64,000 nucleotides of DNA from an uncultured Clostridia bacterium (lineage in GTDB: Bacteria; Bacillota; Clostridia; TANB77; UBA1234). The stretch lies in the NCBI GenBank assembly GCA_934149305.1, contig CAKPEF010000003.1:64268-128267 (forward strand), written 5' to 3'. Numbering within the stretch: position 1 is the stretch's first letter; every line of letters starts with the position of its first letter. Shown here piece after piece: positions 16,486 through 48,846 of this stretch. Below the pieces are notes generated by a model, which saw only the letters and a program-made list of their open reading frames with translations, did not search any database and was not told where the DNA came from. The position numbers and the translations under genes were made by a program.

Positions 16486-16555
16486 ATGTAGCTTAAGCTT
16501 AAGTGTGCACTGTAAAATTAGTAAATACAACCATAAATAAGATGGAGGAGATAGT
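16486..16555 (+). repeat. diverged copy of the GTGCTCCATAAAA repeat family with fused leader and RBS
   Basis: ATGTAGCTTAAGCTTAAGTGTGCACTGTAAAATTAGTAAATACAACCATAAATAAGATGGAGGAG; parallels 47719-47782. Confidence 0.7.
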
Positions 16556-17035
16556 ATGCAAAACAAAGAATTTATAAATAAAGAAAACGGCATAACAATG
16601 GTAACAGTAATAGTGATGGTAGTAGTTATTACTATAATTTCTGTTATGTCTATAATATCTTCAAAAACTATCTTTAAAGAATCAAAAGAAGAAGCTTTAA
16701 AGCAAAATAAATTTGCAGTAGAAACCGCTGTATCAAAATATGCAGCTAAAGCCGCAACAAGCGGGGTATTAACACCAGCAAATGTGCCACTACCAGGTTT
16801 GCAAAATCCAGAGTTTGAAAAATTAAGCGGTGATTCAGAAGAAAACTATGAAAAAATTAAAGTTGGAGTCGGAAAGGACTGGTATTTACTTAGAAAAGAT
16901 GAATTAGAAAGCATAGGGGTAACATATATAAATGAAAATTATCTTGTAAATTATAAAAAGAACATAGTAATACCGCTTTCAACTAGTGAAGATGTATTTT
17001 CACTTGTTGAATACTATGAACAAAATGAACAATAG
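16556..17035 (+). CDS. hypothetical protein with N-terminal TM helix (weakly prepilin-like)
   Basis: GGAGG RBS; NGITMVTVIVMVVVITIISV hydrophobic segment after a Gly; no canonical G-F/M-xxxE motif. Confidence 0.5.
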   Translation: MQNKEFINKENGITMVTVIVMVVVITIISVMSIISSKTIFKESKEEALKQNKFAVETAVSKYAAKAATSGVLTPANVPLPGLQNPEFEKLSGDSEENYEKIKVGVGKDWYLLRKDELESIGVTYINENYLVNYKKNIVIPLSTSEDVFSLVEYYEQNEQ

Positions 17036-17044
17036 ATAAAAAGA

Positions 17045-17105
17045 CTATCATGATTCTTGAAATATTATTTCTATATAACATTTCAAAAATCGTGATAGTC
17101 TTAAT
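17045..17105. terminator. long-loop hairpin between convergent genes
   Basis: GACTATCATGAT ... ATCGTGATAGTC arms with AT-rich loop, T/A runs on both sides. Confidence 0.5.
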
Positions 17106-17126
17106 TTTTGAGGTAAACTATGTACC

Positions 17127-17714
17127 TTAAAAATCTATTTGTATCACACTATATTTAGTTAAATTATTCTTTGGATTTATACCTAAAGTAATTGATATAT
17201 TATTCATATTAGTTGATTCGCCATCCTCGTTTTTAGAGATATCGCAATTTATAAATATTTTTTCACCATTTCTTTCAATTTTATTTATCTTAGAGATTTT
17301 AAAATATTCTGGTGAAGAGCCTAAGTAATAGTAATATGAGTTTTCACTATCATACAGATAATAAAAATCATCAATAACAATTGGAGCTTCAATATAAAGA
17401 CCTGTTAATTCACTAATTAGAGTATGCAAAGTATCTTTTTCAACATATTGAAAATACACATCATCTTGGTTACCATCATTCGCAAGACCGATTTCAGTAG
17501 CGTACTGCATTGCAACATCTAATAGCATACTTTCAGAGTATGAATCTTTAGAAAAATTGCCCAAATTCACTAAAATATCTAAATGAGCATCTTGCTTAAT
17601 TGTATCAATTTCTTCTTTTGATGTTATAGACTTATTTGCACCAAAAATGCATATAAAAATGGTGACAATTGCAATAGATATTAGTGCGATGACAGGCAAT
17701 AAAAACTTTTTCAT
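17127..17714 (-). CDS. hypothetical membrane-anchored protein
   Basis: GAGGAGG RBS then ATG (MKKFLLPVIALISIAIV TM anchor); the track start at 17729 is GTG inside the RBS. Confidence 0.6.
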   Translation of the reverse strand: MKKFLLPVIALISIAIVTIFICIFGANKSITSKEEIDTIKQDAHLDILVNLGNFSKDSYSESMLLDVAMQYATEIGLANDGNQDDVYFQYVEKDTLHTLISELTGLYIEAPIVIDDFYYLYDSENSYYYYLGSSPEYFKISKINKIERNGEKIFINCDISKNEDGESTNMNNISITLGINPKNNLTKYSVIQIDF

Positions 17715-17887
17715 AATAATCCTCCTCACGGTACGCTAGTTATGTGTAATAATTATAACATTTCTACATTAAATCTCAATAAAATAAACCTTAAATTTAT
17801 GTTACAGTTTTATTACAAATATGACCTATATGTTACTACTACGCAGCTATAAAAAATGCATATCGGATGTAATTGTATTTTATGGCA

Positions 17888-17920
17888 ATGTAGCTTAAGC
17901 TTAGGGGTGCTCCATAAAAA
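17888..17920 (+). repeat. GTGCTCCATAAAA family copy
   Basis: ATGTAGCTTAAGCTTAGGGGTGCTCCATAAAAA. Confidence 0.85.
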
Positions 17921-17965
17921 TATTACTGTTTAGCATTTAACATAAATTAAGGGTTACTATATAGG

Positions 17966-18044
17966 CTTCAAAATAAAAGTATATGCCAAATGTAAATGTA
18001 TGCTATAAAAATGTCGAGGAGCTTAGGCGTGCTCCATAAAAACA
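17966..18044 (+). repeat. about 80-bp direct repeat (copy 1) containing a GTGCTCCATAAAA core
   Basis: CTTCAAAATAAAAGTATATGCCAAATGTAAATGTATGCTATAAAAATGTCGAGGAGCTTAGGCGTGCTCCATAAAAACA; about 95% identical to 20831-20910. Confidence 0.9.
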
Positions 18045-46360: not shown

Positions 46361-46383
46361 TTTCATATAATATCTATTTAAGC

Positions 46384-46427
46384 CTAAATTATTACAAGTT
46401 TAATGATTTAGGCTTATTTTTTATAAA
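46384..46427 (+). terminator. rho-independent terminator after rplS
   Basis: AAGCCTAAAT..ATTTAGGCTT plus T6. Confidence 0.8.
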
Positions 46428-46558
46428 TTTGAAAAGTAACCATTTGTGGCTGTATTTCCAAATATTACATTCACTTTTAAGTTGACATCACAATGTAATG
46501 GGTTATATAATTGGGGTAAGTTGAAACCTAAATAATATAAACACGGAGGATAATTCTT

Positions 46559-47482
46559 GTGGTTAATGCACTGAAACTTATGGAGAAAGCCAATAGTCAA
46601 TTTATGAGCGCAAATTCTGATGAATTAGGCATAGACTATAAACTATTTAAAAGCATTGCAACTCGGTGTGGATATTCCATTTTAGAAAGAAAAGAAGGAT
46701 ACAAAAAACTCTTTAAACTCAGAAAAAGTGGTATTCCACTGGTTAAATTATATCCGTATGAACAAGACAACACATTTAATTTTTTAGATATTTCAGATAT
46801 TCATGTTGGAAACAAAATGTTTGATCCTGACAAATTAAGAAGCATACTCGAAGCAGCAAAAAAGAGAAATGTGAGACAAGTTTTTATTGCGGGAGACATA
46901 TTTGAGGCAGTATATGATAGCGCAGAATACGACTTTAGAATTATGAGCTCCAATAAACAGAAATATATAGAAAAGCGTTTTAAGGATGAGCTTTATAGAG
47001 TTAGCAAAATATTCGCTGAGTATCCGTTTGATTATTATGCAATCAACGGTAATCATGAATACGAATATGAGCAGCTTGGCATAGAAAGTCCGATAAAACA
47101 GCTTGAAGAAAAATTAAGACGATATGGGGTTAACTTCAACAGTTACGACACATATATTGTAGATTTTTTAATAGCTGGTGTTATAAAGCGCGTTATGCAT
47201 CTTGAAAGTTTTTACACGCAAAAAACGGTCTGCGCATCGCTCGAAAGATTGTATGAATTTAATAGACACGGAGGCTTAAATGTAAAAATATCCGAAACCG
47301 AAAAAGTTCCGATTAGATTTTTAGAGTGTGGGCATGTTCACCTCACGATGGAACTTTATAGTGCAAGGCATAATGTATATGTTATGCAACCTGGTTCACT
47401 TATCGTGACAGAAAATCCATATGAATCTGGGATTTTTGCTAGAGGCGAAGTGACAAAAGAAAGAAATATCGTAAGGTATTAA
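46559..47482 (+). CDS. calcineurin-like metallophosphoesterase
   Basis: DISDIHVG, GDIFE, GNHEY, GHVH motifs; GTG start after GGAGGA. Confidence 0.7.
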   Translation: MVNALKLMEKANSQFMSANSDELGIDYKLFKSIATRCGYSILERKEGYKKLFKLRKSGIPLVKLYPYEQDNTFNFLDISDIHVGNKMFDPDKLRSILEAAKKRNVRQVFIAGDIFEAVYDSAEYDFRIMSSNKQKYIEKRFKDELYRVSKIFAEYPFDYYAINGNHEYEYEQLGIESPIKQLEEKLRRYGVNFNSYDTYIVDFLIAGVIKRVMHLESFYTQKTVCASLERLYEFNRHGGLNVKISETEKVPIRFLECGHVHLTMELYSARHNVYVMQPGSLIVTENPYESGIFARGEVTKERNIVRY

Positions 47483-47640
47483 GATTAAGGAGCTTTGAAG
47501 AAATTCAAGGCTCCTTTTATGAAATATTTTAATTAAAGATATTACGATTTTAATTCCAATTTTTATATATTTAGTATATACTGTATATATTATGAAACTT
47601 ACATGAGTAGAGTAAACTAATTTATAAAACAGTTGCAAAA

Positions 47641-47782
47641 ATGTAGCTTAAGCTTAGGCGTGCTTCATAAATCAAAACATTTTGAACAAATATTGTAATC
47701 AACAATGAAATGCAAAAGATGTAGCTTAAGTGCGCTCCATAAAAATTAGTGAACACAACCATAAATACAAGGGGGAATAAAA
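47641..47782 (+). repeat. two GTGCTCCATAAAA family copies, the second fused to the leader and RBS of the PstS-like gene
   Basis: ATGTAGCTTAAGCTTAGGCGTGCTTCATAAATC ... ATGTAGCTTAAGTGCGCTCCATAAAAATTAGTGAACACAACCATAAATACAAGGGGGAATAAAA. Confidence 0.85.
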
Positions 47783-48781
47783 ATGAAAAAATTTTTAATA
47801 TGTTTAGTTACGGTTATTTGTGCATGTGGTATTGTTTTTGGTTGCATGCTATGGTATAAATCAGCTACAAACCCGAATGTAGAAGAACCTAGCAAAATAT
47901 CTGGCGATAAAAGTGGTGAGCAAACTATAGTAGACAATCAAGAAATTATAGATAAAGACACCGAAAAAGAGCAAGATAAAACACCTATATTTACATTAGA
48001 AAATTATCCAAAAGTAGATGCTTCACTTGCCATTCACCCACTAGTAAACAGTATAGCTTCGAACTTTTTGGGCATTCCAAAAACAGAGTTGAATTTTGAA
48101 TACACAAAGACTCGTTCAAGTACAGTATATAAAAACTTAATAGACAAAAAAGTTGATGTAATATTTGCTGCTGAAGCTGCAAAAGAAGATTTAGAATATG
48201 CGAAATCTCAGAATGTAGAACTAAAAATAATTCCAACAACAAGTAGCGCTTTCGTATTTATCGTAAATACTGAAAATCCAGTAGAAAATTTAACTTTAGA
48301 ACAAGTTCAAAAGATATATAAAGGTGAAATAACCAATTGGAAAGAAGTTGGCGGAAATGATGAAGAAATAATTCCTTATCAAAGACCAAATGGGAGTGGA
48401 AGCCAAACAGCAATGCTTTCACTTGTAATGAAAGATGAAAATTTAATGACTGCACCAAAAATGAAAATTGAAGCAGAGATGGGCGGATTAATAGATGCAA
48501 TTGCAGAATATGATAATGCGAAAAATGCAATTGGATATTCATATTTTTACTATGTAAATACAATGTATAAAAAAGATACTGTTAAAATGCTTGCAATAAA
48601 TGGAGTAAAGCCAACAATAGAAACAATAAAAAATGGAACATATCCAATATTCACAAATGGTTTTATAGCATATAGAGCGGATGAAAAAGAAGATTCAAAC
48701 ACATTAAAATGGGTGAATGCAGTTTTATCAGAAAGAGGAAGCAAAATAATAGAAGATGCTGGATATGTTCCAGTAAATTAA
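47783..48781 (+). CDS. PstS-like periplasmic substrate-binding (PBP) lipoprotein
   Basis: Signal peptide with Cys near the cleavage site; PBP_like_2-type motifs (VDVIFAAEAA, PNGSGSQTA, GYSYFYY) (recollection). Confidence 0.55.
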   Translation: MKKFLICLVTVICACGIVFGCMLWYKSATNPNVEEPSKISGDKSGEQTIVDNQEIIDKDTEKEQDKTPIFTLENYPKVDASLAIHPLVNSIASNFLGIPKTELNFEYTKTRSSTVYKNLIDKKVDVIFAAEAAKEDLEYAKSQNVELKIIPTTSSAFVFIVNTENPVENLTLEQVQKIYKGEITNWKEVGGNDEEIIPYQRPNGSGSQTAMLSLVMKDENLMTAPKMKIEAEMGGLIDAIAEYDNAKNAIGYSYFYYVNTMYKKDTVKMLAINGVKPTIETIKNGTYPIFTNGFIAYRADEKEDSNTLKWVNAVLSERGSKIIEDAGYVPVN

Positions 48782-48819
48782 GCACGCTAATAACAAATTA
48801 AATTATTTAAACAAACTAG

Positions 48820-48846
48820 ATGTAAAAGTGTGCTCCATAAAAATAA
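48820..48846 (+). repeat. GTGCTCCATAAAA family copy upstream of the 48884 gene
   Basis: GATGTAAAAGTGTGCTCCATAAAAATAAAT. Confidence 0.75.

What the first reader, a model, noticed from the sequence alone, without database searches (positions are those of the whole stretch)
16486..48846. A same-orientation intergenic repeat family with a palindromic core (GGAGCACAG / TAGCTTAAGC..TTAGGC + GTGCTCCATAAAA), at least 16 copies in 64 kb
Seen directly at 16486, 17888, 18010, 20876, 21941, 23111, 29557, 29654, 29671, 34186-34427 (5 copies), 47641, 47719 and 48820. The core GTGCTCCATAAAA is preceded either by its inverted complement (GGAGCACAG-TGTGCTCC, 8-bp arms) or by the self-palindrome AGCTTAAGCT plus TTAGGC. 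Every copy is on the plus strand and intergenic, within 20-350 bp upstream of a plus-strand start codon. The downstream genes are functionally unrelated: a pilin-like protein, mutS2, a 3D-domain protein, corA, lexA, an SLH protein, a DUF2628 protein, a PstS-like protein and a hypothetical. The hairpin is followed by an A-run rather than a U-run, so it is not a terminator, and it lacks good -35/-10 hexamers. Possible roles are the operator of an abundant dimeric DNA-binding protein, an RNA stem-loop or processing element in 5' UTRs, or a MITE/REP-like element that spreads together with its own leader. I do not recognise it as any described repeat (BOX, RUP, ERIC, REP).
Basis: seen in the sequence. 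Interest (0 to 1): 0.8.

Follow-up and report, generated by a model that had tools for sequence, protein, structure and literature searches.

The report
Mobile hairpin repeats parked before genes
The repeat is real: it is a family of short non-coding mobile DNA elements (MITE-like units built around a REP-like "GTAG + hairpin" core) in an uncultured human-gut Firmicute, and they always point the same way and often end a fixed 11-13 bases before a gene's ribosome-binding site.

Summary
Confirmed. GTGCTCCATAAA occurs 14 times (0.29 expected), and 18 times with a looser pattern. All copies are on the + strand and intergenic, at 9 loci between 16.4 and 48.9 kb.

The conserved core is GTAG(C), a 7-bp hairpin (GGAGCAC/GTGCTCC, variable loop) and ATAAAAAC. 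Four of its 7 stem pairs show compensatory changes across relatives. This matches the published formal definition of a REP.

In this species the core sits inside two MITE-like units with terminal inverted repeats and 8-bp target duplications:
- Type 1 is GGTAGTGTAAACTAAT...CACAACC.
- Type 2 is GTTACTATTCAGCCTT...AAGGCTGAATAGTAAC.

Strains differ by clean insertions. One 64-bp array varies from 1 to 5-6 units between strains.

In 12 of 13 type 1 copies the ribosome-binding site starts 9-13 nt after the element's right end (11 of them at 11-13).

I found no match in Rfam, phages, plasmids or the literature. No transposase (RAYT or IS) was found in any sequence I could reach.

The best reading is a non-autonomous mobile repeat, not an operator or a promoter. 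What drives the orientation and the placement next to the ribosome-binding site is unresolved. I rate it a new variant of a known kind, of moderate interest.

The parts
16441..16532 (+). Type 1 MITE-like unit, short form. Left arm AATAGTGAAAACTAATTTGTGAAAA, degenerate core 16486-16517 (ATGTAGCTTAAGCTTAAGTGTGCACTGTAAAA), right arm TTAGTAAATACAACC. Flanking 8-mers are CTAAACAA and ATAAATAA. The ribosome-binding site starts 12 nt after the right end; the start codon is at 16556.
   Evidence: weak covariance-model hit 16482-16520; the predicted promoter 16391-16418 lies upstream of it
17856..17952 (+). Truncated type 2-like unit lacking the left terminal repeat, with a variant core (GTAGCTTAAGCTTAGGGGTGCTCCATAAAA, 17884-17922). 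It is part of a 225-bp block that is absent from strain L109.
17953..18075 (+). Type 2 MITE-like unit. Inverted ends are GTTACTATATAGGCTT and AAGTCTGAATAGTAAA. Hairpin core at 18007-18044.
   Evidence: (37.7 bits)
20819..20951 (+). Type 2 MITE-like unit between the tmRNA gene (- strand) and the 3D-domain gene. Hairpin core at 20873-20910. The + strand RNA fold is -30.6 kcal/mol (z -3.5) against -15.5 kcal/mol for the - strand.
   Evidence: (38 bits)
21906..21984 (+). Type 1 unit, short form, upstream of corA. The core is at about 21941-21969. The ribosome-binding site starts 12 nt after the right end.
23063..23143 (+). lexA leader. A left-arm-like hairpin (GGTAGTGTA...TACACTGCT) is followed by a GTAG hairpin whose stem carries compensatory changes (GTAGA GGAGCTT AAGCC AAGCTCC ATAAA). 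It abuts the ribosome-binding site and lies downstream of the predicted lexA promoter at about 23016-23050.
   Evidence: 35.8 bits; absent from the sister species L156 and L158
29540..29708 (+). Cluster upstream of the SLH (surface-layer homology) protein gene. Cores are at 29553-29585 (short variant), 29635-29671 (perfect hairpin) and 29672-29694. A right-arm-like sequence TCATAGAACACAAT is at 29695-29708, and the ribosome-binding site starts about 13 nt after it.
   Evidence: (47.2 bits)
34177..34496 (+). Head-to-tail array of 5-6 core units (period 47/64 bp), then the X module (34440-34481) and the right arm (34482-34496), upstream of the DUF2628 gene (true start about 34524). The copy number is 1, 2 or 4 in other strains.
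47606..47760 (+). Type 1 unit with two variant cores (47637-47675 and 47715-47747) upstream of the PstS-like binding protein gene. The ribosome-binding site starts 11 nt after the right end. A degenerate copy occupies the same site in strains L146 and L150.
48818..48843 (+). Solo degenerate core without a left arm (AGATGTAAAAGT GTGCTCC ATAAAAA), about 40 nt before the start codon at 48884.

Best explanation
The copies are non-autonomous mobile DNA: two families of MITE-like elements and their debris, sharing one internal module.

The shared module is a REP-like hairpin: GTAG, 1 nt, a 7-bp stem GGAGCAC/GTGCTCC, then ATAAAAAC.

Shown:
- Type 1 has ends GGTAGTGTAAACTAAT...TTAGTGAACACAACC. It is 77-155 bp long and may carry an optional X module and 1-2 cores.
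- Type 2 has ends GTTACTATTCAGCCTT...AAGGCTGAATAGTAAC and is about 131 bp long.
- Both types have terminal inverted repeats. Their youngest copies are flanked by 8-bp direct duplications of the target.
- Copies are gained or lost between strains.
- The core can amplify head-to-tail into 64-bp arrays whose copy number differs between strains.

Inferred:
- The elements are moved in trans by a transposase encoded elsewhere in the genome. An 8-bp duplication points to a DDE-type enzyme.
- The GTAG hairpin is either a captured REP or a site used by a second, RAYT-like enzyme.
- The elements land in A-rich 8-mers. Type 1 lands so that the ribosome-binding site begins 9-13 nt after its right end in 12 of 13 copies (11 of them at 11-13 nt), always co-oriented with the gene. 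This implies either an asymmetric target that includes the ribosome-binding site, or very strong filtering by selection.
- Where promoters were predicted they lie upstream of the elements, so the copies are probably transcribed as structured 5' leaders.
- In the opposite orientation the hairpin would be followed by a U-run and resemble a terminator. This would help to purge reverse insertions.
For: Strain differences:
- Strains L110 and L113 carry a 138-bp type 1 unit between mcsB and clpC. The window has the empty site there: window ...AATA|ATAGAAAG|TAAGGAGG, filled site ATATAAAT-element-ATAGAAAG.
- The same strains carry a 131-bp type 2 unit between corA and lexA, flanked by AAATTGAC and AACTTGAC.
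- Strain L109 carries a type 2 unit with a perfect 8/8 duplication, AGTTCTTG. Strain L110 shows the empty site.
- Strain L109 lacks window 17856-18080.

Target duplications:
- L141 is 8/8 (TATAATAT); L119 and L134 are 7/8.
- Flanks matching at 7 or more of 8 positions: 3 of 9 type 2 copies against 2 of 72 controls, and 5 of 21 type 1 entries against 21 of 420 controls. Two of the type 1 elements appear twice in that list as mirror-image matches.

Array: 1, 2, 4 or 5-6 units in different strains.

Hairpin: 93% of cells are paired, and 4 of 7 pairs show changes on both sides. The covariation score is 0.20 against 0.09 in shuffles, with 0 of 500 shuffles reaching it.

Placement: the ribosome-binding site starts 9-13 nt after the right end in 12 of 13 type 1 copies, 11 of them at 11-13 nt. 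The 13th copy abuts another element.

Orientation: all 9 window loci and 3 extra strain insertions are on the + strand. Single copies in the metagenome loci are co-oriented with local gene direction and GC skew in all but about 2 loci (L119 and L141, and L124 is ambiguous). L125 and L144 carry both orientations.

Consensus-predicted promoters lie upstream of the elements at 16391 and 47562. The lexA promoter was read by eye from the sequence.
Against: - No transposase with matching ends was found. There are no IS-length pairs of the terminal repeats in any fetched locus. The one IS seen (a DDE_Tnp_1 gene in L113) has unrelated ends.
- Older copies show no recognisable duplication.
- DDE transposition is normally orientation-neutral, so the 12 of 12 co-orientation and the fixed offset need an extra assumption.
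- Two families with unrelated ends but the same internal module is unusual for MITEs.
- The window's 'empty' corA-lexA site can also be read as a deletion between two TAGTAA repeats.
- Only about 64 kb of this genome, plus strain variants of the same region, could be examined. Genome-wide copy number and behaviour on the other replichore are unknown.
Confidence: 0.72

Rival explanations
1. The basic replicating unit is the GTAG hairpin itself. On this reading it is a true REP, cut and copied as single-stranded DNA by a RAYT (an IS200/IS605-type Y1 HUH enzyme) encoded once elsewhere in the genome. The uniform orientation would reflect insertion into the lagging-strand template, as for IS608, and not gene direction. 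The larger 'MITE' units would be secondary composites.
For: - The core meets the formal REP definition: GTAG 0-2 nt from the foot of a fully paired stem of at least 7 bp, with a loop of 2-5 nt (PMC6006769).
- GTAGCGGAG is invariant across many low-GC gut contigs while the stems co-vary: GGAGAAC/GTTCTCC, GGCGCAC/GTGCGCC, CGCAGACC/GGTCTGCG, TGGCGACC/GGTCGCCA.
- In other organisms the hairpins occur solo, in both orientations and as inverted pairs, as REPINs/BIMEs do: L125, L144, L139, L123, L156.
- Head-to-tail arrays occur.
- The + strand here is the G-rich (leading) strand throughout the window.
- Group 1 RAYTs are reported in Clostridia (PMC5581495).
Against: - No Y1/RAYT gene was found in the window or in the fetched low-GC loci (strain variants, metagenome hits and sister-species loci).
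- The RayT homologue search returned only Enterobacteria.
- The clean insertions seen between strains are whole units with inverted ends and 8-bp duplications. Y1 transposition does not make such duplications.
- In L125 both orientations occur within one uniformly skewed region.
- Many window copies lack the left arm of the hairpin.
- Known REPs sit mainly 3' of genes (PMC3733652), whereas these sit 5' of genes.
Confidence: 0.3
2. The conserved part is a functional 5'-UTR RNA module: a GUAGC hairpin, an A-rich tail and a CA-rich right arm just before the ribosome-binding site. It would stabilise the mRNA 5' end or tune translation, or be bound by an RNA-binding protein. Its spread and its orientation would then be kept by selection for that function.
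For: - The copies lie downstream of consensus-predicted promoters and 0-50 nt before ribosome-binding sites in many unrelated genes and contigs.
- The + strand folds better than the - strand: type 2 gives -30.6 against -15.5 kcal/mol, and the lexA leader gives z -2.9 against -1.5.
- Mismatches in the type 2 terminal stem are 15 G:T against 1 A:C, which means wobble pairs on the sense strand only.
- A sister species has a different GTAG hairpin in the same position before the map gene.
Against: - There is no Rfam match even at E-values up to 5.
- The elements are absent from syntenic sites in sister species. The lexA leader hairpin is missing in L156 and L158.
- They are present or absent between strains.
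- The short type 1 unit does not fold better than shuffled sequence (z 0.0).
- The type 1 arms show no G:T against A:C asymmetry (9 against 11).
- The downstream genes are functionally unrelated.
- The G:T counts are not independent events.
Confidence: 0.25
3. The palindrome is the operator of an abundant dimeric DNA-binding protein, or the motif is a promoter for a housekeeping or alternative sigma factor.
For: - The sequence is an inverted repeat placed upstream of genes, with a highly conserved GTGCTCCAT and nearby A/T-rich tracts.
- The X module contains a perfect TATAAT 11 nt before the right arm.
Against: - The spacing between the two arms varies from 3 to 9 nt, and the arm sequence co-varies.
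- Many copies have only one arm.
- The spacing between the GTAGC block and the CATAAA block is not constant.
- The consensus scan finds no -35/-10 pair inside the elements, and promoter-like sites are no more frequent than in shuffles.
- Tandem arrays of 5-6 units and strain-specific insertions inside an operon are not expected of operators.
Confidence: 0.06

Closest known systems
REP / BIME / REPIN sequences with their RAYT (TnpA-REP) transposase, GTAG-tagged families (Proteobacteria, Cyanobacteria, Chloroflexi, PVC superphylum)
   Same: A 5' GTAG tag lies 1 nt from a short, fully paired hairpin. The stems co-vary while the tag stays fixed. The copies are extragenic, numerous, arranged in head-to-tail arrays, and vary between strains. 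Related organisms also carry inverted pairs.
   Different: - These are in a low-GC Firmicute. The 2013 survey of GTAG repeats lists no Firmicutes (PMC3733652).
- All copies here have one orientation.
- They lie 5' of genes next to the ribosome-binding site instead of 3' of genes.
- A conserved 3' tail (CC)ATAAAAAC follows the hairpin.
- The hairpin is embedded in units with inverted ends and 8-bp duplications.
- No RAYT was found.
Pneumococcal BOX elements (boxA-boxB(n)-boxC), with RUP and SPRITE
   Same: Both occur in Firmicutes. The architecture is modular, with partly complementary outer modules and an inner module that repeats in tandem a variable number of times. Both are intergenic, probably co-transcribed with neighbouring genes, and have no known dedicated transposase.
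   Different: - There is no sequence similarity.
- BOX, RUP and SPRITE are only about 61% on the leading strand and are enriched between convergent genes (PMC3049150).
- Here 12 of 12 loci share one orientation and lie 5' of genes.
- The inner module here is a GTAG hairpin.
Classical bacterial MITEs such as Correia/NEMIS (Neisseria), bcr1 (Bacillus cereus group) and ERIC
   Same: They are 80-160 bp long, with terminal inverted repeats, target-site duplications and AT-rich targets. They are intergenic, fold into long stem-loops when transcribed, and show insertion polymorphism between strains.
   Different: - The duplication here is 8 bp, not TA or TTTAT (those two values are from my own knowledge).
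- Two families with different ends share one internal REP-like module.
- Orientation is strict, and type 1 has a fixed offset of 9-13 nt from the ribosome-binding site (11-13 nt in 11 of 13 copies).
- No parent IS was identified.

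Membership tests
REP (repetitive extragenic palindrome) | GTAG or GTGG tetranucleotide 0-2 nt 5' of the foot of a hairpin | tested here: met
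   GTAG plus 1 nt (C or A) precedes the stem in every hairpin-type copy. G7, T8, A9 and G10 are invariant in 28 of 28 aligned sequences.
REP (repetitive extragenic palindrome) | Fully paired basal stem of 7-20 nt with a loop of 2-5 nt, maintained by compensatory change | tested here: met
   The stem is 7 bp and the loop is 3-5 nt in canonical copies. 93% of cells are paired, and 4 of 7 pairs change on both sides. About half of the window's copies have a degenerate or missing left arm.
REP (repetitive extragenic palindrome) | Extragenic and in high copy number (typically more than 100 per genome) | tested here: inconclusive
   The extragenic part is met: 9 of 9 loci are intergenic while 85% of the window is coding. 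There are about 17 real copies in 64 kb, all within 33 kb. The genome-wide number could not be obtained, because my single genome-collection scan was wasted on a pattern that was too short.
REP (repetitive extragenic palindrome) | A single-copy RAYT (Y1 HUH) gene flanked by the same REPs (a REPtron) | not testable with these tools
   There is no HUH...Y motif and no phmmer hit to IS200 TnpA or E. coli RayT in the window or the fetched low-GC loci. The RayT homologue search gave only Enterobacteria. The rest of this genome is out of reach.
REP (repetitive extragenic palindrome) | Usual arrangement as inverted pairs (REPIN/BIME) and a location 3' of genes | tested here: not met
   In the window all copies are head-to-tail or single, on one strand, and 5' of genes. 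Inverted pairs are seen only in other organisms: L125, L144, L139, L156.
[quoted passage not shown] | Terminal inverted repeats | tested here: met
   Type 2 has 15-16 nt ends with 113 Watson-Crick and 15 G:T pairs out of 135 positions. Type 1 has about 18 nt ends with 130 Watson-Crick pairs out of 198 positions and conserved mismatches.
[quoted passage not shown] | Target-site duplication of fixed length | tested here: met
   The duplication is 8 bp. It is 8/8 in L109 (with an empty site in L110) and in L141; 7/8 in L110 (corA-lexA), L119 and L134; and 6/8 at the verified mcsB-clpC insertion. It has decayed in older copies. Flanks are enriched over the flank-swap control.
[quoted passage not shown] | Small, non-coding, multi-copy, with insertion polymorphism | tested here: met
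   Units are 77-155 bp. At least 4 sites are filled in some strains and empty in others.
[quoted passage not shown] | A parent IS with the same ends that supplies the transposase | tested here: inconclusive
   No pairs of the terminal repeats lie 0.4-4 kb apart around a transposase gene in any locus. The DDE IS in L113 has other ends. There are no matches in plasmids or phages. Only a small part of the genome was seen.
Rfam cis-regulatory or small RNA families | A match to a curated covariance model | tested here: not met
   Nothing overlaps the repeats at the gathering threshold. With E-values up to 5, the only hits are generic long-hairpin artefacts on L144.

The most novel reading that the evidence does not exclude
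Type 1 elements are MITEs that home, in one orientation, to the 8 bp lying 1-4 nt upstream of a Shine-Dalgarno sequence. On this reading the transposition machinery reads the ribosome-binding site, or the DNA around it, as an asymmetric target. Each jump then installs a ready-made structured leader (a GTAG hairpin, a CA-rich arm and, in long forms, a TATAAT box) directly in front of a gene. That would be a mobile 5'-UTR cassette able to rewire the expression of arbitrary genes. A linked possibility is that the GTAG hairpin marks the first REP-RAYT-type system described in Firmicutes.
Probability: 0.25. Interest if true: 0.7.

Novelty: new variant of a known kind. Interest (0 to 1): 0.5.

Why it matters
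Small interspersed repeats are well studied in Proteobacteria (REP, ERIC, Correia) and streptococci (BOX, RUP). They are almost undescribed in the uncultured low-GC Firmicutes that make up much of the human gut flora.

This family shows three things:
- GTAG-tagged hairpins exist outside the phyla where they were catalogued.
- They can be carried inside elements with inverted ends and target duplications.
- Such elements can sit with near-nucleotide regularity in front of ribosome-binding sites, including inside an operon (mcsB-clpC) in some strains.

If the placement is targeted, it is a natural system for inserting leaders in front of genes, and a source of strain-level differences in expression. 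At the least, the variable array and the sites that are filled in some strains and empty in others are useful strain markers for this species in metagenomes. Annotators should also stop calling start codons inside the right arm, as happened at 34485.

Tried and rejected
- Genome-collection scan with the 15-mer GYGTGCTCCATAAAA. The pattern was too short for 596 Gb. Loci L001-L080 (and the rest of that batch, up to L107) are junk.
- Viral contig scans. There were two chance matches in 42-44% GC contigs and none for the type 2 core.
- Sigma-54 promoter, ops/RfaH-like site, tRNA acceptor mimic, DNA uptake sequence and Chi/KOPS-type skewed words. I considered these from the sequence and dropped them. 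The variants do not keep the required positions, and the copies are strictly intergenic.
- Intrinsic terminator. There is none on the + strand. On the - strand the hairpin is followed by GCTACATTTTT and is flagged by the scan, but the T-run starts 5-6 nt after the stem.
- Search for a RAYT: a regular expression for the HUH...Y..NP motif, phmmer with IS200 TnpA and E. coli RayT, and a homologue search. Nothing usable came back. The supplements of the RAYT papers hold no Firmicute entries.
- Organism name. Cluster look-ups and the Ffh homologue search return unnamed metagenome proteins only. The best clues are CtsR/McsB/ClpC and MurT/GatD, plus SpoIVA in a relative with 80% Ffh identity. These point to an endospore-forming Firmicute lineage.
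- Extending the window. The contigs ended, so nothing was gained.
- Plasmid and phage BLAST. No real match.
- A composite transposon around the MutS_V gene. The outer type 2 ends lie 3 kb apart, but the strain deletion has different borders.

Full report
**1.

GTGCTCCATAAA with up to one mismatch occurs 14 times in the window, all on the + strand. Dinucleotide-preserving shuffles give 0.29. Sub-motifs show the same bias: GCTCCATAAA is 13:0 and ATGTAGC is 16:0. A looser expression finds 18 sites.

A covariance model of the core, run without filters on both strands, finds 11 + strand copies. Six score 36-47 bits. The only - strand hits are the self-complementary stems of the same copies, or noise that I read and rejected.

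The copies occupy 9 of the 38 intergenic gaps of at least 60 bp, in a window that is about 85% coding. All lie between 16.4 and 48.9 kb. There is a head-to-tail array at 34177-34440 with a 64-bp period.

**2. Where the window comes from**

The window is about 30% GC, with positive GC skew throughout and about 85% of genes on the + strand. Exact-protein look-ups place it in human-gut metagenomes (Hadza, Nepal and others) and in unnamed MAGs. CtsR/McsA/McsB/ClpC, MurT/GatD, ylxM-ffh and, in a relative with 80% Ffh identity, SpoIVA point to an uncultured endospore-forming Firmicute lineage. No species name could be obtained.

**3. Anatomy of the core**

Thirty metagenome contigs matched GGAGC-N(3-8)-GTGCTCCATAAAAAC. 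About 22 of them are low-GC relatives. Together they show that the conserved core is (A/C/T)GTAG(C/A), then GGAGCAC, a loop, GTGCTCC, then ATAAAAAC.

- The loop varies in length and sequence: AGT, ATT, TAAA, TTAAGT, TACTTAC, CTAAGTA.
- The stem varies by paired substitutions: GGAGAAC/GTTCTCC, GGCGCAC/GTGCGCC, GGAGCTT/AAGCTCC (the window's lexA copy), CGCAGACC/GGTCTGCG, and TGGCGACC/GGTCGCCA in a sister species.
- On an alignment of 28 distinct cores, 93% of cells pair and 4 of 7 pairs have changes on both sides. The covariation score is 0.20 against 0.09 in shuffles (0 of 500 reach it) and at most 0.06 when the 3' partners are slid by 1-3 columns.

So the hairpin forms in a single strand. Variable arm spacing argues against a dimer operator.

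GTAG one nucleotide from the foot of a 7-bp fully paired stem with a 3-5 nt loop is exactly the operational definition of a REP used by Quentin et al. (PMC6006769). The 2013 catalogue of GTAG repeats lists Proteobacteria, Cyanobacteria, Chloroflexi and the PVC superphylum, but no Firmicutes (PMC3733652).

**4. Anatomy of the larger units**

In this species the core is rarely alone.

- *Type 1.* These units run from GGTAGTGTAAACTAATTTATGAAAA, through an A-rich spacer and one or two cores, to ATTAGTGAACACAACC. Long forms carry an extra X module (CTAATTGATAGCAGTACACTAAAAT...GAAAAATATTATA). The two ends are imperfect inverted repeats. Window copies are 16441-16532, 21906-21984 and 47606-47760. The right halves also end the clusters at 29708 and 34496.
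- *Type 2.* These units (about 131 bp) run from GTTACTATTCAGCCTTCAAAATAAAAGTATAT, through the core, to TTAAGGCTGAATAGTAAC, with 15-16 nt inverted ends. Window copies are 17953-18075 and 20819-20951. A truncated one lies at 17856-17952.
- *Variants.* Many window cores are variants in which the left arm is replaced (GTAGC TTAAGC TTAGGC GTGCTCC) or absent (ATGTAAGC GTGCTCC). The first variant recurs in other contigs, so it is a subfamily and not random decay.

**5. Mobility**

Strain contigs 92-100% identical to the window differ by clean gains or losses.

- L110 and L113 have a 138-bp type 1 unit between mcsB and clpC, where the window has a 3-bp spacer. It is flanked by ATATAAAT and ATAGAAAG, and the empty site contains a single ATAGAAAG.
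- The same strains have a 131-bp type 2 unit between corA and lexA, flanked by AAATTGAC and AACTTGAC.
- L109 has a type 2 unit flanked by a perfect AGTTCTTG/AGTTCTTG. L110 shows the single-copy site.
- L109 lacks window 17856-18080.

Across loci, perfect or 7/8 eight-base duplications flank L141, L119 and L134. Flanks matching at 7 or more of 8 positions are 3 of 9 (type 2) and 5 of 21 (type 1 entries, two elements being listed twice as mirror-image matches). Flank-swapped controls give 2 of 72 and 21 of 420. Older copies have lost the signal.

The array before the DUF2628 gene has 1, 2, 4 or 5-6 units in different strains. At two loci (20819 and 47606) some strains carry a strongly diverged copy at the same site, so those insertions are old.

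Sister species (Ffh 80-84% identical) lack the copies at syntenic sites, including the lexA leader hairpin. They have their own GTAG hairpins elsewhere.

**6. Orientation and position**

All 9 window loci and the 3 additional strain insertions are on the + strand. In the metagenome loci, single copies are co-oriented with local gene direction and GC skew, except at about two loci (L119 and L141; L124 is ambiguous). L144 has a copy on each strand. One REP-rich contig from another organism (L125) has both orientations within a uniformly skewed region.

The most regular feature is position. In 12 of 13 type 1 copies a GGAGG-like ribosome-binding site (at most one mismatch) starts 9-13 nt after the right end, and in 11 of them it starts at 11-13 nt. 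That is the 8-bp target followed by 1-4 nt. The 13th copy abuts a second element that itself obeys the rule. The verified mcsB-clpC insertion landed there too, so the ribosome-binding site is not carried by the element.

Type 2 units sit further upstream, next to or in promoter-like sequences.

Pneumococcal BOX, RUP and SPRITE, by contrast, are only about 61% on the leading strand and are enriched between convergent genes (PMC3049150).

**7. Transcription and folding (inference)**

A consensus scan finds no -35/-10 pair inside the elements. It places plausible promoters upstream of them at 16391-16418 and 47562-47591. The lexA promoter, with a LexA-box-like spacer at about 23016-23050, I read by eye from the sequence. 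So at those loci the elements would be part of the 5' leaders.

- The + strand folds better than the - strand. Type 2 gives -30.6 (z -3.5) against -15.5 kcal/mol. L126 type 1 gives -21.4 against -18.9. The lexA leader gives -19.3 against -17.3. The short unit at 16441 is no better than shuffles.
- Mismatches in type 2 ends are 15 G:T against 1 A:C, as expected if the sense strand must pair. Type 1 arms show no such bias (9 against 11). These counts are not independent events.
- On the - strand the hairpin is followed by GCTACATTTTT and is flagged as terminator-like. This would penalise reverse insertions in transcribed leaders.

**8. What it is not**

- There is no Rfam family at the gathering threshold or at E-values up to 5.
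- There is no match in phage or plasmid collections, and no real match in viral contigs.
- No paper in the held library contains the sequence.
- No Y1/RAYT or matching IS occurs in the window or the fetched low-GC loci.

**9. Verdict**

The repeat is a family of non-autonomous mobile elements. It combines MITE features (inverted ends, 8-bp duplications, insertion polymorphism) with a REP-type GTAG hairpin that is shared by two MITE families and that also occurs solo and in arrays.

Shown: the anatomy, the compensatory changes in the stem, the polymorphism, the duplications, the orientation, and the offset from the ribosome-binding site.

Inferred: mobilisation in trans by a DDE-type enzyme and/or a RAYT-like enzyme, transcription as leaders, and purging of reverse copies.

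Unresolved: which enzyme moves them, and whether the ribosome-binding-site-adjacent, one-way placement is due to targeting or to selection.

I rate it a new variant of a known kind, of moderate interest.

Noticed in passing
window 29390-29450 (small ORF) with (AC)9 at 29417-29434; terminator-like hairpin 29481-29511: A short ORF (MNAKTLEAVTHTHTH...) upstream of the SLH (surface-layer homology) protein gene contains an AC dinucleotide repeat. By eye, its length differs between strains: 9 units in the window, about 6 in L109 and about 10 in L110. It is followed by a strong terminator-like hairpin. It looks like a slippage-prone leader peptide that might vary expression of the surface-layer gene.
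   Followed up: partly
window 35303-42425: A 7.1-kb block of eight genes (AMP-binding enzyme, two GNAT-like proteins, a B12-binding protein, two radical-SAM proteins, a DUF4430 protein and one unknown) lies between the DUF2628 gene and ylxM. It is absent from all ten strain contigs L146-L155. It looks like a strain-specific biosynthetic island.
   Followed up: partly
window 20348-20386 (3' end of the tmRNA gene, 20386-20736, - strand); L109 6329-7197: Strain L109 has an insertion of about 870 bp, carrying a PBECR2/PBECR3-domain gene, at the 3' end of the tmRNA gene. A 38-bp duplication of the tmRNA end flanks it, as expected for an integrated element using tmRNA as its attachment site.
   Followed up: no
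In those strains the flanking sequence joins directly to the tmRNA terminator. L113 instead carries a DDE_Tnp_1 IS nearby.
   Followed up: partly
window 28683-28729: A 47-nt near-perfect palindrome lies just after clpC: CTGCCCCATGTAGCGCTTGCTGAATAGTCAAGCTCTACATGGGGCAG. It contains GTAG on both arms and a CTGAATAGT centre that resembles the type 2 right end. No T-run follows it. It may be another GTAG-tagged repeat or a relic.
   Followed up: no
window 34485 (GTG) versus about 34524 (ATG): The longest-ORF start of the DUF2628 gene falls inside the right arm of the repeat. Strain annotations (183-184 aa) and the ribosome-binding site show that the real start is about 39 nt downstream.
   Followed up: yes
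L156 4215-4430: A sister species has a palindrome of about 215 bp between a small ORF and ctsR. Both of its arms contain GTAGCGGAGGGGATTGATAACAC. This looks like a REPIN-style inverted doublet of a different GTAGCGGAG family.
   Followed up: no
L125 (whole locus, 13955 bp): A contig from another low-GC gut organism, carrying conjugation-type genes, is dense in GTAGCG hairpins of at least four stem types, in both orientations. It would be a good place to look for the cognate RAYT.
   Followed up: partly
window 1-16400 and 48900-64000: No copy of the repeat occurs in these 31 kb, although they contain 24 intergenic gaps of at least 60 bp. All copies cluster in the central 33 kb. The cause is unknown; local hopping or chance are both possible.
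   Followed up: no
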